Of a stretch of 64,000 nt of DNA, positions 431 to 34,599 are shown in pieces. The stretch is from Candidatus Shapirobacteria bacterium (lineage in GTDB: Bacteria > Patescibacteriota > Microgenomatia > UBA12405). The DNA lies in NCBI GenBank assembly GCA_022837635.1, contig JALHFY010000001.1, forward strand, positions 23,562 to 87,561, read 5' to 3'. The stretch's first letter is position 1. Every line of letters starts with the position of its first letter. Below the pieces are notes generated by a model. That model did not search any database. It was not told the origin of the DNA and saw only the letters and a list, made by a program, of their open reading frames with translations. The position numbers and the translations under genes were made by a program.

Positions 431-435
431 TAAAT

Positions 436-453
436 CTGTAATAATAATTACAG
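436..453. terminator. Perfect hairpin ctgtaat-aata-attacag downstream of the first CDS
   Basis: A 7-bp inverted repeat with a 4-nt loop was read directly. It lies in AT-rich flank. Confidence 0.3.
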
Positions 454-512
454 ATGAATTTTAAGAGGCGGTCAATTAGATTGGCGGGCTATGATTACAC
501 CCGACAGGGTTT

Positions 513-1175
513 TTGTTTTGGAAAAATGAAAGTATGTATGAGTTGAGTGAAGTAGGTGAAATGATCGAAAAATCGATTTTGGAAATTGAAAAATATTATA
601 TAGGAATAGGGGTGGAAAAATATGTGGTGATGCCAGATCACGTGCATATGATAATTAAAATTGTAGGGGCAGATTCCTATATCTGCCCGAATAAAAATAA
701 ATGGCATGCCAATAAAAATGGGCAGGAAATTGCAGATAATACGGGGAATAAAATTGTAGGTGATACAGAAAGGAAAATTGTAGGGGCAGATTCCTATATC
801 TGCCCTGGTGGTCAAAATGATATGGAGGGAAAATGGGATGTCGGTTGTAAAAATAATATGGGGCGGGGAATTTTAAATAATATGGAAAAAAATTTTTTAA
901 ATAATACGGGGCGGGGAATTTTAAATAATAAAGAGCGGAAATGGGATTCCGCCCGTACCGGAATTTCATTATGCGCCATAATTCAAAGATTTAAGATTTT
1001 TACCACCAATAAGTATATTCGAGGTGTGAAAAATCAAAATTGGCCAGGTTTTTATAAACGTTTTTGGCAACGCAATTATTATGAAAGAATTATCCGAAAT
1101 TATGGTGAATATAGGCGGATATGTAAATACATTGATGATAATCCGGACACATTTATTCATAAAAATTATCATTGA
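513..1175 (+). pseudogene. IS200/IS605-type Y1 HUH transposase, RAYT-like. It is N-terminally truncated and carries an internal repeat-rich insertion
   Basis: HUH motif VVMPDHVHMII is present. The C-terminal WQRNYYERIIRN...YIDDNP resembles the RAYT/IS200 Tyr region. About 270 nt between IVGA and ARTG contains two 32-bp direct repeats (aaaattgtaggggcagattcctatatctgccc at about 656 and 773) and two 28-bp repeats (ggggcggggaattttaaataata at about 856 and 907). Confidence 0.5.
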
Positions 1176-1206
1176 ATTGTAGAGTGAGAGAGATTAGAAT
1201 GGGGAG

Positions 1207-2652: not shown

Positions 2653-2680
2653 AAGCCCCCGCCGCAGCGGGGGACTTTGA
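2653..2680. terminator. Bidirectional rho-independent terminator shared by convergent genes
   Basis: GC hairpin gcccccgc-cgca-gcgggggac between the convergent CDS 1207..2652 and rplL. Confidence 0.6.
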
Positions 2681-2696
2681 AGTGACAAGATGAGAA

Positions 2697-3089
2697 TTAT
2701 TTTAATTCTACCTGAGCACCAGCGGCTTCCAATTTAGTTTTAGCATCATTGGCAGCATCTTTTTTCATGGTTCCCAAGGAAGCGGGAGCGGCATCAACCA
2801 TGTCTTTGGCTTCTTTCAAACCAAGTTCGGGTTTGAATTCGCGGACAACTTTAATAACGGCGATTTTGTTGGCACCAGCATTGGTGATGGTGACATCAAA
2901 CTCGCTTTTTTCTTCGGCAGCAGCAGGAGCGGCACCAGCAGCAGCAGGAGCGGCACCAGCAGCAGCAGGAGCGGCCATAGCGACAGCTTTAACATCGAAC
3001 TTTTCTTCAAGAGCCTTGACCAATTCGGAGAGTTCAAGAACCGAAAGTTGACTGATTTGGTCGAGTATGGTTTCTAATTTTTTGTCCAT
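2697..3089 (-). CDS. rplL: 50S ribosomal protein L7/L12
   Basis: Ala/Pro-rich hinge ([13 protein letters not shown]) and a C-terminal domain ending [12 protein letters not shown]. Confidence 0.95.
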
Positions 3090-13733: not shown

Positions 13734-14198
13734 ATGAATATGTCAATTGTGAGTAAGAAAGGAGATCGAGGGGAGACTTGGTATTTTGATAAAAGAGTGA
13801 GGAAGGATTCGGAGTTGATGGAAGCGGTAGGGAGTTTGGATGAATTGCAGGCGATTTGTGGGCTGGTTAAGTTAGAAAAAATACAAAAAGATTTATATGA
13901 AATAATGGCGAACTTAGACAAAGAAACTAGAAACAAGAAACTAGAAACCAGAATAAGGGAGATAGAGAAGGAGATAGAGATGATGGAGAAAAAGATAAAG
14001 GTGCCGAGGGAATTTGTGATTTTCAAAAAAGAGAAGGCGGTCAAGTTAAATTGGGTGAGAACGGTGGTGAGGAGAGCGGAGAGAATGATAATGAAACTAG
14101 AAACTAGAAACCAGAAACCAGATAAAGGTGTAATGATTTATTTAAATAGACTGTCCGATTTTATTTATTTAAGAGCTTTACAAGAAGAATTAAAATAA
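13734..14198 (+). CDS. PduO-type ATP:cob(I)alamin adenosyltransferase
   Basis: GDRGET...EAVGSLDEL at the N-terminus and VRTVVRRAERM...YLNRLSDFIYL at the C-terminus. The gene contains two CYAGAAA heptamer tracts. Confidence 0.65.
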   Translation: MNMSIVSKKGDRGETWYFDKRVRKDSELMEAVGSLDELQAICGLVKLEKIQKDLYEIMANLDKETRNKKLETRIREIEKEIEMMEKKIKVPREFVIFKKEKAVKLNWVRTVVRRAERMIMKLETRNQKPDKGVMIYLNRLSDFIYLRALQEELK

Positions 14199-14272
14199 AT
14201 TGGAATCAGGTGTAAGTCCTGAGCAGTGCCGCTACGGTAACAGCCCGAGCGAGAAAGCTTTCGAGCAAAAGT

Positions 14273-15118
14273 ATGAACAATAAAGAAAATTTTAAGCCTT
14301 ATTATGATATTAATCTACATAGTCATGAGGTGGTTGCCAGAGTGTTTCAAGAAGAAAGAAAAGGAGTGGGATTGGAATTGCGGATTGTTCATGCCGAAAA
14401 TTATGAAGAAAGTCGAATAAAGACTGATGATTGGGAATATAATCTCCATTCGGGAGCAGAAAAAAAAGCGACTCAAAATGTGTTTGAGTTATTGAGACAG
14501 GGTGCTCAAATGGTGATTTGGATTAGTCCACCCAGTGAAGTTTATGAAGAAGGGAGACTAAATGTAATGTTGAAAGGAGAGAAAGAGGGAGAATTGTTTT
14601 TCGATCCATACGGGTTACCATTGGATTTAAACAGAGAGGAGAGTTTGGAATTGGGACAGAGATTATGGAGAATGGAGGGTAAAAGTTTAGTTGCGCCATC
14701 AGATATAGAGATTTTACGGGAACAACCGATTGGTTTTTATCTGAGAGATAAAAATTGGTTGCAAAAGTGTCGGGAATTAATGCCAGAAATGGAATGGGCC
14801 TGGAAAACAATTGAGACGGGAAAGGTGGAGGAAAATATGAAAATAATTGCCGGTGAAGTGAAAGAAGCTAGACAAAAAGCTGGCGGAGATAATTATTTAT
14901 TTGAGGCGATAATGGCTAGAAATGGGTATTATTTGAACGTATCAGGAAGTCATGGAGGTTCGTGGTTGAGTCAGGAATTAGTCAGAAGTACACAGGGTAT
15001 AATCGCCTTTGATATAAATGGAAGAATAGAATATCGATTAGGAAGAACTGAGGGTTTACATTACTGCGAACGTTGTGGTTGTTGGTACAGTGGTGAAAAA
15101 TGTCCGGTCTGTAAATGA
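14273..15118 (+). CDS. Hypothetical protein with a C-terminal zinc ribbon (CERCGC...CPVC)
   Basis: No recognisable family. Confidence 0.4.
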   Translation: MNNKENFKPYYDINLHSHEVVARVFQEERKGVGLELRIVHAENYEESRIKTDDWEYNLHSGAEKKATQNVFELLRQGAQMVIWISPPSEVYEEGRLNVMLKGEKEGELFFDPYGLPLDLNREESLELGQRLWRMEGKSLVAPSDIEILREQPIGFYLRDKNWLQKCRELMPEMEWAWKTIETGKVEENMKIIAGEVKEARQKAGGDNYLFEAIMARNGYYLNVSGSHGGSWLSQELVRSTQGIIAFDINGRIEYRLGRTEGLHYCERCGCWYSGEKCPVCK

Positions 15119-18482: not shown

Positions 18483-18519
18483 TTTTTGTTACAATTATGT
18501 GTGATATTAAGAGAGAGAA

Positions 18520-18745
18520 AACGGAATAGGTTGGTGGGGTTTGATTATTCACAAGCAGGTTGGTATTTTGTCACCATTTGTAGTCAGGAAAAAGGAAATA
18601 TTTTTGGGGAGGTGGTGAAAGGGAAGGTGAAATAAATCAAAATATATTTTTGGATGAATATATAATCATGCCGGATCATGTGCATGGGATTATTGAAATC
18701 GTAGGGGCCGGGCAGTGCCCGGCCCGTACCAATTCGAAATTATAT
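18520..18745 (+). pseudogene. Degenerate fragment of an IS200/RAYT-type HUH transposase
   Basis: MPDHVHGIIEIVGAG, followed by the GC hairpin gggccgggcagtgcccggccc and ...ARTNSKL. The fragment is frameshifted and has no full ORF. Confidence 0.45.
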
Positions 18746-21399
18746 TATCGGGAATCCGAGGAATTTTTTAAAAGCCAAAAAAGGGTGATGATTAACAAGC
18801 CAAAGCCGAGGAATTGAAGCAGTTGAGGCCAGAATAAAATATAGATATCGGGACAGGGCGATGTCTTGTCTGTACATAGGGAATCAGGTAATTCCCAGGC
18901 ATTGGCCCAATTGTTCAAAAGATAATGGTTTTTAAGGAGATGTATTTTGCTGTTTTGTCGGTAAAAAGCCAACCAACCGGAAGAATAAGATTGAGGTAGG
19001 ATCAGAGTATGGGCTAGGGCATCAAGATTTATTTTGTAATAAAAAATACTGTTTTTAGAGTCGAGATAATGTCGATTAAGGGGAGCCGGATAATTTGGGG
19101 GACTGGAGAATAAGTTATAAACAGTGATGTTGTCAATATAGTTTTTGTTGGCTTGATGAAAACTGGTGTTATTGAAAATAAAATTAAGACCATAATCAAA
19201 AGTATCGGACTGTCGAGCGGGAATATAAAACCACGAAGTGGCGGGATTGGGAGAGATAGGGAGAAGGGTTTCAAAATACTTATTTAAAAGATTATCGGAA
19301 ATGGCGGAAATTTTGAGAGGCAATCCAGCTTCATGTCGAGAATTTATTTTGACCAGATAATTTTGGGAGAGAGAGGCTTTGGGGAAGTGAAAAGCAAAAA
19401 TGTTTTGCGTGGTATCTGAATGTTCCTGACTTTGAGTAACCAATACATTTTCGGTTAATAAAAGCGAGTTGGGATCAAAGTTTAATTCTGATTGCAGACG
19501 AGAAGTGAAATAATTATCAAAATTGGGGGAGGCTTGGTGGTCGACAAGATAGTCGCCCAATCTTTGATAATCATAATCGACTAGAGCAAAATCGAAAGCT
19601 GGGGCGGAAGGAAGTTGGGAGGTGGTAGCAATTTTAGTGGAAAAATTAGTTTGATAAACAGAAATATTTTGAGTTTGTTTGACCAGGATTAAATTAGGTA
19701 AACTGTCGAGTAAATTTTTGGTCGGTTGGGATAATTTACCGTAGATGTTTTCATCGGGAAAATAAATATTGTTGTCAAAAATAATGTATTCAATAAAATA
19801 TTTGGAAAAGACATTGTTTAACAGTAATGGATCTTGGCTTTGAATGGCATGACTTAATTCCCAATAATATTGTTCGTTTTTTAAATTCCAAGTATCAAAG
19901 GCACGGTCTAAAATTGGTTGAGGGATGGCATACCAAATGAAGCCAGAACCGGATAGATTCCATTTATAGTTGGTCCAACCCCAAAAAGAACCTTGGGGGA
20001 GATTGGCGATACGAGCGGTCGGGGCGACTTGAGATTGAAAAAAGTTAAAGATTTCCATGTATTCTTGGGGAATTTTTTGTCGAACATCAGGTGAGAAATA
20101 GTTACCACTAAAACTAGGTTGAGAGAAGAAATAAAGACAAAGAAGAGACAGAAAAATTGGCAACTTGGCGACAAAAGAAGAGTATTTTAATTGAGTTGCG
20201 ATTTGATAAAGGAGTTGTAAGCCTAAAGCAAAGAGGTAACTAAAAAGGAAGGCGGCGGGTACCAGAAATTTGGTCCAAGGTGAACGAAAAATTTGGTTGA
20301 TAATGGGCAGTGAACGGAGAGCTTGATTTAAAAGATTGAAAGGAAATTGGTTGGAAAGTAAAGTTAGGGCGGAGAGGAGTAATAAAAAAATAAGGGAGAT
20401 TTTAATATACTTGGGGGTATGTCGATGAGTAAAGAGAGAAATAAAACCTAAGATAACCACAAGAGATAAAAGATAGCCACAGAGGAGAAAATAATGATTG
20501 GAAAAATGTTGTTGCCACGCGGCTAAAAGAGCGGTATTGTTACTGGGAAAATCGTAATAATAGCCACGCAAGAGCAAAAAATCGCTTAGATTGCCCCGGG
20601 CCTGATTGCGAGCAAAGGTTTCATTGTTACTCATGAAATTGCCAATGCCGGCAGTGGGGTTTTGAAGATTGGTTTTGAGAAAATAAAGTTGAGATAAGAG
20701 CCAAAAAGAATTAATTAAGAAGATAATTAGATAAATAGATAAGTAGTTGGGAAGATGAGAAATTTTTGGACGGGTTATAAAATGGGCGAGTAAAATTAAC
20801 GAGATACACAGTAGATAGACAATAAAAATAGTTTGGACGTGGAAAGAGGGGATGGCTAGGATATTTAAGATAATCAGTTTTTTGAGGTGTTTTTTATTTT
20901 CCAAAAAATCCCAAAAAGTAAAAATCAGCCAGGGAAAAAAGCCCCAAAAGGTGGAAAATGATTCCAAAGGGACACGGAAATATTGAACAGAGCCGAAATT
21001 CAGAAGATAAAAAAGAGCAGCGGCGAGAGGGATTAATTTTTGGGACAGATGTTTTTTGAGACCAAAATAAATACCAAAGGTACCTAAAAAGAGCATGGCA
21101 AAATGCCAAAAATAACGGATTAATCTGACAGGTAGAATGAGGGTTAGGGGTAAGATGAGCAGTTGACGGATAAGATCAGTAGCGTGGGCCATACCACCGA
21201 CTAAACCTAGACCTTGATATTCTTGCCAGACGGCTAAAAAAGATCTTTTTAGATTTAAGCTGAGATTGAGTTCCGGCATGAGATTGTCCCAACCGATCAA
21301 AAAGGTACCGGGAGTATAGTTTTTAAGGCACAAAAGAGAGAGGACAGCGACTAAAATAATTTCGCTAAGATGTCGTTTACACCAGGCAAAGATAGGCAT
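18745..21399 (-). CDS. Large polytopic membrane protein, probably a GT-C-type glycosyltransferase
   Basis: An 884-aa protein with many transmembrane segments, adjacent to a GT2 gene. Confidence 0.4.
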   Translation of the reverse strand: MPIFAWCKRHLSEIILVAVLSLLCLKNYTPGTFLIGWDNLMPELNLSLNLKRSFLAVWQEYQGLGLVGGMAHATDLIRQLLILPLTLILPVRLIRYFWHFAMLFLGTFGIYFGLKKHLSQKLIPLAAALFYLLNFGSVQYFRVPLESFSTFWGFFPWLIFTFWDFLENKKHLKKLIILNILAIPSFHVQTIFIVYLLCISLILLAHFITRPKISHLPNYLSIYLIIFLINSFWLLSQLYFLKTNLQNPTAGIGNFMSNNETFARNQARGNLSDFLLLRGYYYDFPSNNTALLAAWQQHFSNHYFLLCGYLLSLVVILGFISLFTHRHTPKYIKISLIFLLLLSALTLLSNQFPFNLLNQALRSLPIINQIFRSPWTKFLVPAAFLFSYLFALGLQLLYQIATQLKYSSFVAKLPIFLSLLCLYFFSQPSFSGNYFSPDVRQKIPQEYMEIFNFFQSQVAPTARIANLPQGSFWGWTNYKWNLSGSGFIWYAIPQPILDRAFDTWNLKNEQYYWELSHAIQSQDPLLLNNVFSKYFIEYIIFDNNIYFPDENIYGKLSQPTKNLLDSLPNLILVKQTQNISVYQTNFSTKIATTSQLPSAPAFDFALVDYDYQRLGDYLVDHQASPNFDNYFTSRLQSELNFDPNSLLLTENVLVTQSQEHSDTTQNIFAFHFPKASLSQNYLVKINSRHEAGLPLKISAISDNLLNKYFETLLPISPNPATSWFYIPARQSDTFDYGLNFIFNNTSFHQANKNYIDNITVYNLFSSPPNYPAPLNRHYLDSKNSIFYYKINLDALAHTLILPQSYSSGWLAFYRQNSKIHLLKNHYLLNNWANAWELPDSLCTDKTSPCPDIYILFWPQLLQFLGFGLLIITLFWLLKNSSDSR

Positions 21400-34394: not shown

Positions 34395-34599
34395 CTCCGA
34401 TGAATGCTGGTAAACCAGAAGACCAAATTTAACCTGCCAAAAGTAGGGGCTTCGATAGTGGCTTTTCCACGCAAAAATACGTGGGGAGAACTAGTCTGTA
34501 GAAGCAAGCCTCTAAAGACAAACATCCTCCATTTTTATACTTTAGCTAGAAAAAACACCTTCTCAAAGACTGCTTTCAGCAGGCTGATATAATTGTAGC

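What the first reader, a model, noticed from the sequence alone, without database searches (positions are those of the whole stretch)
513..1175. RAYT/IS200-type HUH transposase remnant expanded by nested short direct repeats. A second remnant at 18520-18745 carries a GC hairpin at the same position
Both copies keep MPDHVH(M/G)II(K/E)IVGA. The copy at 18660 then encodes GAGQCPARTN through a perfect GC palindrome gggccgggca(g)tgcccggccc. The copy at 513 has about 270 nt inserted at exactly that point. The insert is built from two 32-bp repeats, each containing the palindrome gggcagat...atctgccc, and two 28-bp repeats ggggcggggaattttaaataata. It then resumes with ARTGISLCAIIQRFK and the catalytic Tyr region. 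Either the palindromic stretch after the HUH motif is a hotspot for slippage / REP-like insertion, or these are domesticated fragments. Antisense ORFs here (495..815, 655..969, 969..1172) are repeat artefacts.
Basis: partly seen in the sequence, partly recalled or inferred. Interest (0 to 1): 0.5.

Follow-up and report, generated by a model that had tools for sequence, protein, structure and literature searches.

The report
REP hairpins inside a decayed RAYT gene
This is a broken copy of a REP-associated tyrosine transposase gene whose middle is filled with the small GC hairpins (REP elements) that such enzymes act on, a peculiarity already described for this enzyme subclass, so the case is well documented but ordinary.

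Summary
Window 454-1175 and 18504-18770 are two diverged remnants of RAYT/TnpA_REP genes. Each carries a GTAG-footed GC hairpin that starts exactly 20 nt after the HUH motif. Copy 1 has about 267 extra nt there, built from direct repeats.

The repeats are not a sign of decay. An intact 268-aa allele at the same chromosomal position in three other assemblies carries the same 117-nt unit and more 24-nt units (six, against four in the window). What breaks the window copy is a 37-nt deletion that removes strand beta1 and shifts the frame.

The insert is the hypervariable stretch between beta3 and alphaC that defines TnpA_Y1 subclass 2.4 (Bertels group 4). Quentin et al. 2018 already reported REP sequences inserted in frame within these genes.

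In 59 related loci, hairpin density in this stretch is 8.1 per kb, against 0.38 per kb in the rest of the gene. Copy number differs between near-identical strains, always at direct-repeat boundaries.

The window holds no free REPs. Relatives carry the same REP in frame in other genes, including glyA.

Verdict: a new member of a known kind, from a Microgenomates-group (CPR) bacterium. Interest is low.

The parts
454..510 (+). N-terminal coding remnant of copy 1 (MNFKRRSIRLAGYDYTRQG), in a different frame from ORF 513
   Evidence: tblastn with full-length homologues; identical to the start of the intact allele P0106
508..520 (+). Junction of a 37-nt deletion (between TTTATTTTG and TTTGTTTTG microhomology). 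It removes YFVTLDLNFKRN (strand beta1) and shifts the frame, making the gene a pseudogene
   Evidence: DNA alignment with the intact alleles L002, L003 and L004. AF2 model of P0106 has a strand at residues 19-27. L001 carries the same deletion; the same 59-nt spacing of tblastn segments in L088 and L094 suggests it there too.
513..1175 (+). Remaining ORF of copy 1 (220 codons): alphaA to the C-terminus of a class 2 TnpA_Y1 / RAYT
633..647 (+). HUH motif PDHVH
   Evidence: read from the sequence; invariant H75/H77 in alignment A3
657..773 (+). 117-nt unit bounded by the 32-nt direct repeats. Present in the window and the intact allele, absent in strain L001
663..688 (+). REP(+) no. 1: GTAG foot plus an 8-bp stem and 6-nt loop (GGGCAGAT-tcctat-ATCTGCCC), encoding VGADSYICP
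780..805 (+). REP(+) no. 2, identical to no. 1
819..850 (+). Probable decayed REP(-) copy (20/32 identical to the 927-958 unit; encodes DMEGKWDVGC against NKERKWDSAR)
   Evidence: only 2 hits at 19/32 or more on the rest of the + strand of the window, and 2 on the - strand; family D4
851..930 (+). Tandem array, period 24 nt (8 aa), 3.3 copies, of AAATAATAnGGGGCGGGGAATTTT, which is the left arm of REP(-) plus its leader. A 48-nt block (aligned as 860-907) is absent in L001. The intact allele has six units
933..958 (+). REP(-): hairpin GAGCGGAA-atggga-TTCCGCCC plus GTAC, with one base of the stem mutated in the window. It is perfect (GGGCGGAA) in L001, L002, L085, L087 and 20 metagenome loci. 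Encodes ERKWDSART
1065..1100 (+). WQRNYYERIIRN: W/Q/E/R/R positions that align with the GTAG-recognition residues W94, Q95, E100, H101, R104 of E. coli TnpA_REP
   Evidence: phmmer alignment of homologue P0006 to 4er8_A; residue roles from PMC6006769
1128..1145 (+). Y motif YIDDNP (catalytic Tyr and the class 2 signature Y---NP)
   Evidence: alignment to 4er8 Y115...N119-P120; Table 1 of PMC6006769
18507..18611 (+). Copy 2, N-terminal fragment (RNRLVGFDYSQAGWYFVTICSQEKGNIFGE)
   Evidence: tblastn
18644..18700 (+). Copy 2, HUH fragment in another frame (IFLDEYIIMPDHVHGIIEI)
18701..18729 (+). Copy 2 REP: GTAG + GGGCCGGGC-agt-GCCCGGCCC + GTAC (9-bp stem, footed on both sides)
18732..18767 (+). 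Copy 2 C-terminal tail (IRNYIIGNPRNF), joined directly to the hairpin. The whole alphaC-to-Tyr region is deleted
   Evidence: weak tblastn hit to P0013 residues 212-223 (E=9, so suggestive only)

Best explanation
Window 454-1175 is a pseudogenised allele of a vertically inherited, single-locus REP-associated tyrosine transposase (TnpA_Y1 class 2, subclass 2.4 / Bertels group 4). The host is a Microgenomates-group (CPR) bacterium.

The roughly 270-nt 'insert' after the HUH motif is the hypervariable beta3-alphaC stretch that characterises this subclass. It consists of in-frame copies of the enzyme's own kind of substrate. These are REP hairpins with an 8-bp stem, three G-C pairs at the base, and a GTAG or GTAC foot. 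One orientation opens the stretch (VGADSYICP, twice) and the inverted orientation closes it (ERKWDSART). Between them lie decayed copies and a 24-nt tandem array derived from the left arm of the closing REP.

Shown here: the stretch changes length between near-identical strains by loss or gain of whole units exactly at direct-repeat boundaries.

Inferred: the mechanism is replication slippage or unequal recombination, probably helped by hairpin stalling. The REPs originally arrived, or are kept matched to the genome's REP family, through RAYT-type single-strand cleavage and joining. The encoded loop is tolerated because it is a disordered peripheral extension.

The gene in the window is dead for a separate reason, a 37-nt microhomology deletion that removes strand beta1. 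Copy 2 (18504-18770) is an older remnant of a different RAYT lineage with its own REP. It was deleted from the hairpin to the C-terminal tail.
For: Family identity:
- Pfam Y1_Tnp.
- HUH, WQ and Y---NP motifs.
- The AF2 model of the intact allele matches 4er8 (TnpA_REP bound to a REP) and IS200/IS608/ISDra2 transposases.

Intact allele:
- P0106 sits in the same synteny in L002, L003 and L004.
- It has the same 117-nt unit and six 24-nt units.

Polymorphism:
- L001 differs from the window by exactly 117 and 48 nt at repeat boundaries.
- Cluster members carry 2 to 6 units.
- Relatives P0003, P0004, P0005 and P0007 differ only in copies of GKGRKWDSNDD and NIRPNDNINS.

Family-wide pattern, from 59 loci across many phyla:
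- Hairpins occur at 8.1 per kb in the post-HUH stretch, 0.38 per kb in the rest of the gene, 0.67 per kb in the flanks and 0.29 per kb elsewhere.
- 44 of 59 loci have an internal hairpin.
- 41 of those 44 remain in frame.
- 19 of those 44 have same-stem copies outside the gene.

The constraint is on nucleic acid, not on the peptide:
- The same element read in other frames or orientations gives VGADxxxCP, GRKWDSART, GQTQGSART, GEHTGSPL and VGAEMGFRPY.
- Stems differ between lineages yet stay paired: 5 of 8 pairs have changes on both sides (sequences were pre-selected for pairing).
- The 26-nt REP(-) is identical in species whose RAYT proteins are only 41-60% identical.

Disorder: residues 84-197 of the model have pLDDT below 50 and lie between the HUH strand and the next helix.

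Prior description: PMC6006769.
Against: - The window has no REP outside the two RAYT remnants in 64 kb. L085 has none in 20 kb. So an active REP population in this genome is not shown.
- The HuH and Y motifs are DHVH and YIDDNP, not the subclass consensus NH[IFV]H and YIxNNP.
- The first hairpin starts 17-26 nt after the HUH in 16 of 44 loci, and in both window copies. This fits an ancestral fixed feature at least as well as repeated insertions.
- No activity has been tested for any subclass 2.4 protein here.
- The covariation count used sequences pre-selected for pairing, so it is partly circular.
Confidence: 0.85

Rival explanations
1. The internal REP pair is not a passive insertion. It is a functional, ancestral cis element of subclass 2.4 genes. 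It could be a protected master copy from which REPs are seeded and which travels with the gene. Alternatively it could be a self-target through which the enzyme or the hairpin RNA regulates expression.
For: - The hairpin starts 20 nt after the HUH in both window copies and 17-26 nt after it in 16 of 44 loci from distant phyla.
- The stem keeps pairing while its sequence changes.
- The REP(-) is identical across species whose proteins have diverged to 41-60% identity.
- In the window and in 10 of 44 loci, the only such hairpins in the DNA held are inside the gene.
Against: - 15 of 59 loci have no internal hairpin.
- Numbers, order and orientation vary widely.
- Hairpins decay once the gene is dead: L108-L110 and the G-to-A change at window 934.
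- Only 10 kb or less per locus was examined.
- A preferred target site would explain the position equally well.
Confidence: 0.12
2. The stretch is a native low-complexity protein linker kept by selection on the peptide, and the DNA palindromes are incidental.
For: - The stretch stays in frame in 41 of 44 loci.
- VGAD..CP is nearly invariant in alignment A3.
Against: - The same DNA element appears in other frames and orientations, giving unrelated peptides.
- It occurs outside RAYT genes and in intergenic flanks.
- Between alleles the stretch shows 0 synonymous and 4 non-synonymous changes, against 3 and 1 in the core (small numbers).
- The model predicts disorder.
- A peptide cannot impose a perfect 8-bp palindrome plus a GTAG foot.
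Confidence: 0.03
3. One reading: the repeats are decay, meaning slippage that expanded an already dead remnant.
For: - Copy number kept changing after the 37-nt deletion. L001 shares the deletion but lacks 117 + 48 nt.
Against: - The intact allele has the full set and more units, so the changes seen after inactivation are contractions.
- Intact homologues in many phyla have the same kind of stretch.
Confidence: 0.08
4. The repeat structure is an assembly artefact.
For: Short tandem and dispersed repeats are error-prone in short-read metagenome assemblies.
Against: - Three independent assemblies (ENA, NCBI, ENA) give the identical six-unit allele.
- The deleted allele appears in the window and L001, and the tblastn segment spacing suggests it also in L088 and L094.
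- Every variant differs by whole units.
Confidence: 0.02

Closest known systems
TnpA_Y1 subclass 2.4 (Quentin, Siguier, Chandler, Fichant 2018, PMC6006769), equal to RAYT group 4 of Bertels et al. 2017 (PMC5581495)
   Same: - HUH/WQ/Y---NP core with no C-terminal extension.
- A highly variable insertion between beta3 and alphaC, made of short DNA repeats.
- GT[AG]G-footed REPs with three G-C pairs at the stem base, inserted in frame inside the gene.
- A 'double-foot' form, seen here in copy 2.
- Low copy number and scattered phyla.
   Different: - The motifs here are DHVH and YIDDNP, not NH[IFV]H and YIxNNP.
- The host is a CPR/Microgenomates bacterium, a group not listed for the subclass.
- The closing foot is GTAC, not C[TC]AC.
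- There are no flanking or extragenic REPs in 64 kb.
- A 24-nt half-REP tandem array is present.
- The window allele is a pseudogene.
E. coli TnpA_REP with REP/BIME (PDB 4ER8; Messing et al. 2012, PMC3479197; subclass 2.2)
   Same: - HUH-Y1 fold (Foldseek E 2.3e-4).
- The W94/Q95/E100/R104 and Y115/N119 positions are conserved.
- The substrate type is a GTAG foot plus a GC hairpin.
   Different: - E. coli TnpA_REP has no insertion after the HUH.
- Its REPs are extragenic, in hundreds of copies, and flank the gene (a REPtron).
- Sequence identity is only about 13%.
Intragenic REPs / RPEs (Di Nocera et al. 2013, PMC3733652; Rickettsia palindromic elements)
   Same: Short palindromic repeats inserted in frame in protein-coding genes and tolerated in loops. 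Relatives of this organism carry the same REP in frame in glyA and other genes.
   Different: Here the host gene is the transposase itself, and the elements pile up at a single site.
IS200/IS605 insertion sequences (TnpA_IS200, subclass 1.1)
   Same: HUH-Y1 fold; recognition of DNA hairpins.
   Different: - IS200 has the Y---Q motif, subterminal hairpins at the IS ends, and many identical copies.
- Here the motif is Y---NP, and the gene sits at one syntenic locus across species. The second copy in the window is a diverged paralogue.

Membership tests
TnpA_Y1 class 2 (TnpA_REP / RAYT) | HUH motif on strand beta3 | tested here: met
   PDHVH at 633-647 and 18671-18685; invariant H-x-H in A3
TnpA_Y1 class 2 (TnpA_REP / RAYT) | Y motif with the class 2 signature Y---NP | tested here: met
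   YIDDNP at 1128-1145; aligns to Y115...N119-P120 of 4er8 through P0006. Copy 2 keeps only a weak tail.
TnpA_Y1 class 2 (TnpA_REP / RAYT) | Complete Y1_Tnp core domain (PF01797), including beta1 | tested here: not met
   The window allele lacks beta1 because of a 37-nt frameshifting deletion. Pfam matches only in two pieces, 26.7 bits. NCBIfam REP_Tyr_transpos scores 44.2 bits, below the 80 cut-off. The intact allele P0106 has the full core.
TnpA_Y1 class 2 (TnpA_REP / RAYT) | HUH-Y1 fold like 4ER8 | tested here: met
   The AF2 model of P0106 matches 4er8_A (E 2.3e-4, TM 0.59 normalised on the target) and the IS608/ISDra2/IS200 transposases. This was tested on the intact allele, not on the window ORF.
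TnpA_Y1 class 2 (TnpA_REP / RAYT) | GTAG-recognition residues (W94, Q95, E100, H/R101, R104 in E. coli numbering) | tested here: met
   WQRNYYERIIRN at 1065-1100
TnpA_Y1 class 2 (TnpA_REP / RAYT) | Sequence-specific cleavage and joining of single-stranded REP DNA | not testable with these tools
   Needs biochemistry.
TnpA_Y1 subclass 2.4 (Quentin 2018) | Key motifs NH[IFV]H, WQ, YIxNNP | tested here: inconclusive
   WQ is met. The HuH is DHVH (N replaced by D) and the Y motif is YIDDNP (fourth residue D, not N). The closest full-length relatives have NHVH with YIKNNP or YIKDNP.
TnpA_Y1 subclass 2.4 (Quentin 2018) | Insertion between beta3 and alphaC, variable in length and sequence, built from short DNA repeats | tested here: met
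   The HUH-to-WQ distance ranges from 35 to 159 aa in 59 loci.
TnpA_Y1 subclass 2.4 (Quentin 2018) | REP sequences inserted in frame within the gene | tested here: met
   663-688, 780-805 and 933-958. 44 of 59 related loci have them, and 41 of those 44 are in frame.
TnpA_Y1 subclass 2.4 (Quentin 2018) | No conserved C-terminal extension after the core | tested here: met
   The protein ends 9 residues after NP.
TnpA_Y1 subclass 2.4 (Quentin 2018) | 8-aa insertion at the end of alphaB | not tested
   No structure-based alignment to other subclasses was made.
TnpA_Y1 subclass 2.4 (Quentin 2018) | REPs flanking the gene within +/-1000 nt (REPtron) | tested here: not met
   None beside either window copy. 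Relatives L087, L090, L103 and many GTDB loci do have them.
REP / REPIN elements | 5' GT[AG]G tetranucleotide at the foot of a GC-rich imperfect palindrome | tested here: met
   GTAG is present at 663, 780 and 18701. The inverted copy at 933-958 has GTAC.
REP / REPIN elements | Many dispersed, mostly extragenic copies in the genome | tested here: not met
   There are 0 copies outside the RAYT remnants in 64 kb. Only this window was available, not the whole genome. In metagenomes, 5 of 20 loci with the exact 22-mer have no RAYT nearby, and those copies lie inside other ORFs.
IS200/IS605 insertion sequence | Y---Q motif, subterminal hairpins at the element ends, several near-identical copies | tested here: not met
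   The motif is Y---NP. The two window copies are diverged paralogues. The gene keeps the same neighbours across species.

The most novel reading that the evidence does not exclude
In subclass 2.4 RAYTs the REP pair right after the HUH motif may be an ancestral, structure-selected part of the gene, not an accident. On this reading it is a self-carried master REPIN that keeps the enzyme and its substrate together. It would re-seed REPs after loss or transfer and persist even in tiny CPR genomes that show no extragenic REPs. It might also be a self-target that tunes expression.
Probability: 0.12. Interest if true: 0.55.

Novelty: new member of a known kind. Interest (0 to 1): 0.25.

Why it matters
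The value is mainly practical.

- Annotation: the odd low-complexity middle of these 'transposase' ORFs, and short peptides such as VGADxxxCP, GRKWDSART or GEHTGSPL, are REP hairpins read in different frames. They should not be mistaken for decay, for new domains or for separate genes.
- Host range: the case extends REP/RAYT systems with in-gene REPs to a Microgenomates-group CPR bacterium.
- Timescale: it gives a clean population-level example of unit-by-unit length change at direct repeats, and of two independent N-terminal deletions that kill the gene. This shows how fast these stretches move.

A real advance would need a demonstration that the positionally fixed internal REP has a function. 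That is not shown here.

Tried and rejected
- Free REPs in the window: I searched for both hairpin types with up to 3 mismatches and ran a general scan for GC-based hairpins. I found none outside the two remnants.
- GTAGGGGC at 34443 is not followed by a palindrome, so I dropped it.
- Exact look-up of the window ORF (P0001) on contigs returned nothing.
Whole-genome REP counts could therefore not be made.
- Decayed REP copies: scanning the insert with the 32-nt REP units at 59% identity or more recovered only one extra copy, at 819. The other presumed decayed copies are no better than background. I describe them only as direct-repeat families.
- Sequence search of P0006 against the PDB was insignificant (E 0.3-0.5). 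I used it only for residue correspondence. The fold search gave the significant match.
- Substitution counts between alleles are too small for a dN/dS claim.
- A literature search for RAYT together with CPR terms surfaced no such paper among the 10 of 499 hits listed.
- I considered a diversity-generating or phase-variation mechanism. I rejected it because the changes are whole-unit indels at repeats, with no template repeat or reverse transcriptase nearby.
Full report
**1. The observation**

- ORF 513..1175 (+) encodes 220 aa with MPDHVHMIIKIVGA. It matches Pfam Y1_Tnp (PF01797, 26.7 bits against a cut-off of 23, in two pieces). It also matches NCBIfam REP_Tyr_transpos, but below cut-off (44.2 against 80).
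- The repeat finder gives an exact 32-nt direct repeat at 657-688 and 774-805: AAAATTGTAGGGGCAGATTCCTATATCTGCCC.
- It also gives a 31/32 repeat at 851-882 and 899-930.
- TRF shows that the second pair belongs to a 24-nt-period array at 851-930.
- Copy 2 reads MPDHVHGIIEIVGAGQCPARTN through GTAG-GGGCCGGGC-agt-GCCCGGCCC-GTAC at 18701-18729.
- In both copies the hairpin begins exactly 20 nt after the last HUH codon.
- A scan of the whole 64-kb window for GC-based hairpins with stems of at least 7 bp finds four, against a Markov expectation of 0.35. Three are these hairpins, each with a 5' GTAG. The fourth (2656-2673) is a terminator-like hairpin between convergent genes.

**2.

- The gene starts at 454, not 513. 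MNFKRRSIRLAGYDYTRQG lies in another frame.
- The protein cluster of the window ORF contains a 268-aa member, P0106. It is encoded in three independent assemblies with the same neighbours: NTP_transferase, RAYT, DUF1846, rplL. The assemblies are L002 (ENA), L003 (NCBI GCA_002304845.1) and L004 (ENA).
- The DNA alignment shows that the window and L001 carry a 37-nt deletion between the near-repeats TTTATTTTG and TTTGTTTTG. It removes YFVTLDLNFKRN and shifts the frame.
- In an AlphaFold model of P0106 these residues form strand E19-27 of the central sheet. The window copy is therefore a pseudogene. Its HUH, WQ...R and YIDDNP motifs are still intact.
- Two JGI loci (L088, L094) show the same 59-nt spacing between their N-terminal tblastn segments as the window (454 to 513), which suggests the same deletion; I did not align them.
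- Other alleles (P0108, P0110) carry a different N-terminal deletion between two NFKR-coding repeats.
- There is a third hairpin at 933-958: G(A)GCGGAA-atggga-TTCCGCCC-GTAC. It closes the insert and corresponds to the 3' half of the copy 2 element.

**3. The repeats are native and dynamic, not decay**

- The intact allele has the same 117-nt unit and six 24-nt units. The window has four and L001 has two.
- L001 is a syntenic strain about 98% identical to the window. It differs by exactly two gaps of 117 nt (657-773) and 48 nt, each bounded by the direct repeats.
- Other members of the 90% cluster have 2 to 6 units.
- In the nearest full-length relatives, P0003, P0004, P0005 and P0007 differ only in the number of GKGRKWDSNDD and NIRPNDNINS units.
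- The window and L001 share the 37-nt deletion, and L001 has fewer units. So contraction continued after the gene died, still in multiples of 24 or 117 nt. In-frame length here follows from the unit size and is not evidence of selection.
- Substitution counts point the same way but are too few to weigh. In the core there are 3 synonymous and 1 non-synonymous change between the window and the intact allele. In the variable stretch there are 0 and 4.

**4. The units are REP elements**

- REP(+) is GTAG + GGGCAGAT-6-ATCTGCCC. REP(-), read on the other strand, is GTAC + GGGCGGAA-6-TTCCGCCC.
- Both have 8-bp stems with three G-C pairs at the base and a 6-nt loop. They differ at two stem positions and in the foot.
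- The whole stretch folds better than shuffles (z = -2.65). All three hairpins appear in the minimum-energy and centroid structures.
- The 24-nt units are copies of the leader plus the left arm of REP(-).
- One further decayed REP(-) lies at 819-850 (20/32 identical).
- The same element read in different frames or orientations explains the recurring peptides in homologues: VGADxxxCP, GRKWDSART, GQTQGSART and GEHTGSPL.
- The exact 26-nt REP(-) is present in L001, L002, L085 and L087, and its 22-nt core in 20 metagenome loci. L085 is a syntenic orthologue whose protein is 41-60% identical. In L087 the REP flanks the gene on both sides as well as sitting inside it.
- Of the 20 metagenome loci, 15 place the REP in or next to a RAYT gene. 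The other 5 have no RAYT in the DNA held. There the REP lies inside other reading frames. One example is a clean 10-aa insertion, VGAEMGFRPY, in serine hydroxymethyltransferase.

**5. Family-wide test**

I scanned GTDB genomes with an alignment of full-length homologues. This returned 80 loci from Bacteroidota, Chloroflexota, Deltaproteobacteria, Firmicutes, CPR and others. In 59 of them I could locate both the HUH and the WQ motifs.

| Region | GC-based hairpins per kb |
|---|---|
| Post-HUH stretch | 8.1 |
| Rest of the gene | 0.38 |
| +/-1 kb flanks | 0.67 |
| Further away | 0.29 |

- 44 of the 59 loci have at least one internal hairpin, and 41 of those 44 stay in frame.
- The first hairpin starts 17-47 nt after the HUH in 29 of the 44 loci.
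- 19 of the 44 have same-stem copies outside the gene within the locus, and 10 have no other hairpin at all.
- The usual layout is GTAG-REP(+) ... REP(-)-CTAC.
- I took 20 distinct REP(+) sequences from behind HUH motifs. Five of the eight stem pairs show changes on both sides while pairing is kept. These sequences were selected for pairing, so this shows diversity of stems and is not an independent proof of structure.

**6. Comparison with the literature**

This is the published hallmark of TnpA_Y1 subclass 2.4 (Quentin et al. 2018, PMC6006769), which equals RAYT group 4 of Bertels et al. 2017. The paper describes:

- canonical long REPs with three G-C pairs at the stem base, plus 'double foot' REPs;
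- as 'a unique feature', REP sequences inserted within the tnpAREP genes without disrupting the reading frame, modelled as a peripheral extension.

My model agrees. Residues 84-197 have pLDDT below 50 and lie between the HUH strand (75-82) and helix 201-223. The model matches 4ER8 and the IS200-family transposases. Intragenic REPs in other genes are also known (Di Nocera et al. 2013, PMC3733652).

Departures from the subclass description:

- The motifs are DHVH and YIDDNP, not NH[IFV]H and YIxNNP.
- The closing REP has a GTAC foot.
- No flanking or extragenic REPs occur in the window.
- The host differs. The best named SHMT relatives are Candidatus Shapirobacteria at about 70% identity, so this is a Microgenomates-group CPR bacterium. 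A search for RAYT together with CPR terms surfaced no relevant paper: none of the 10 hits listed, out of 499, mentions RAYT.

**7. Copy 2**

- Copy 2 is a diverged paralogue. Its N-terminus resembles the ...YFVTICSQ...FGE group. Its REP is a different type, with a 9-bp stem and a 3-nt loop.
- It keeps three pieces: the N-terminus (18507-18611), the HUH piece in another frame (18644-18700), and one REP footed on both sides.
- A possible C-terminal tail (18732-18767) follows. The tblastn support is weak (E = 9).
- The same remnant, with the same deletions, sits downstream of glyA in strains with 97% identical SHMT. There the hairpin has acquired a mismatch, and L108 has lost the GTAG. The remnant is absent in an 81% relative. 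It is an old, neutrally decaying pseudogene.

**8. Mechanism, and what is shown against what is inferred**

Shown:

- the identity of the gene family;
- the existence of an intact allele with the repeats;
- whole-unit indels at direct repeats between strains;
- enrichment of footed hairpins at this site across the family;
- occurrence of the same REP elsewhere in relatives;
- predicted disorder of the encoded loop.

Inferred:

- that the indels arise by replication slippage or unequal recombination, promoted by the hairpins;
- that the REPs entered, or are homogenised, through RAYT-type single-strand cleavage and joining, as established for E. coli TnpA_REP (PMC3479197, PMC8266576; I saw only the abstracts);
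- that the loop is functionally neutral.

Not excluded: the positionally fixed REP right after the HUH may be an ancestral functional element, either a master copy or a self-target. I put this at about 0.12.

**9. Verdict**

The phenomenon has been described before. The 'remnant expanded by repeats' reading inverts cause and effect. This is a new member of a known kind, and interest is low (0.25).

Noticed in passing
L107 1395-1424 (also L089 1225 and 1373, L096 873, L105 2421): The same REP (GGGCGGAAATGGGATTCCGCCC plus GTAC) sits in frame inside other genes of related metagenomic bacteria. In L107 it is a clean 10-aa insertion, VGAEMGFRPY, in serine hydroxymethyltransferase. The window's glyA has no insertion at that point.
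   Followed up: partly
window 14156-14276 (+): Cobalamin riboswitch aptamer (Rfam RF00174, 35.9 bits against a gathering score of 31.5) just upstream of ORF 14273..15118.
   Followed up: no
window 2656-2673: GC hairpin CCCCCGC-cgca-GCGGGGG between the convergent DUF1846 gene and rplL. It is the only strong GC hairpin in the window outside the RAYT remnants and is probably a bidirectional terminator. It is conserved in L001, L002 and L085.
   Followed up: partly
window 434-455: AT-rich perfect hairpin ATCTGTAAT-aata-ATTACAGAT between the stop codon of the upstream gene and the RAYT start codon, which it overlaps.
   Followed up: no
window 1176-1200: Right after the RAYT stop codon, ATTGTAGAGTGAGAGAG (GTAGGG in L002-L004) resembles the internal AAAATTGTAGG... 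leader. It may be a decayed 3' flanking REP. It does not form a hairpin now.
   Followed up: no
P0108 / P0110 (alleles in the 90% cluster of the window ORF): A second, independent N-terminal deletion (MNFKR|NLFWKNES) lies between two NFKR-coding repeats. The gene has therefore been inactivated at least twice in this population.
   Followed up: partly
L085 10001-10564: A more distant species (SHMT 69% identical) keeps an intact RAYT at the same position after the NTP_transferase gene. This suggests long vertical inheritance at one locus, as reported for domesticated RAYTs.
   Followed up: partly
window 2816-3037 (rplL hinge); L002 8076-8640: The Ala/Pro-rich hinge of L7/L12 is encoded by a short tandem repeat ([20 protein letters not shown]). 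In L002 the rplL gene was called as only 34 aa, so this repeat may be variable or misassembled between strains.
   Followed up: no
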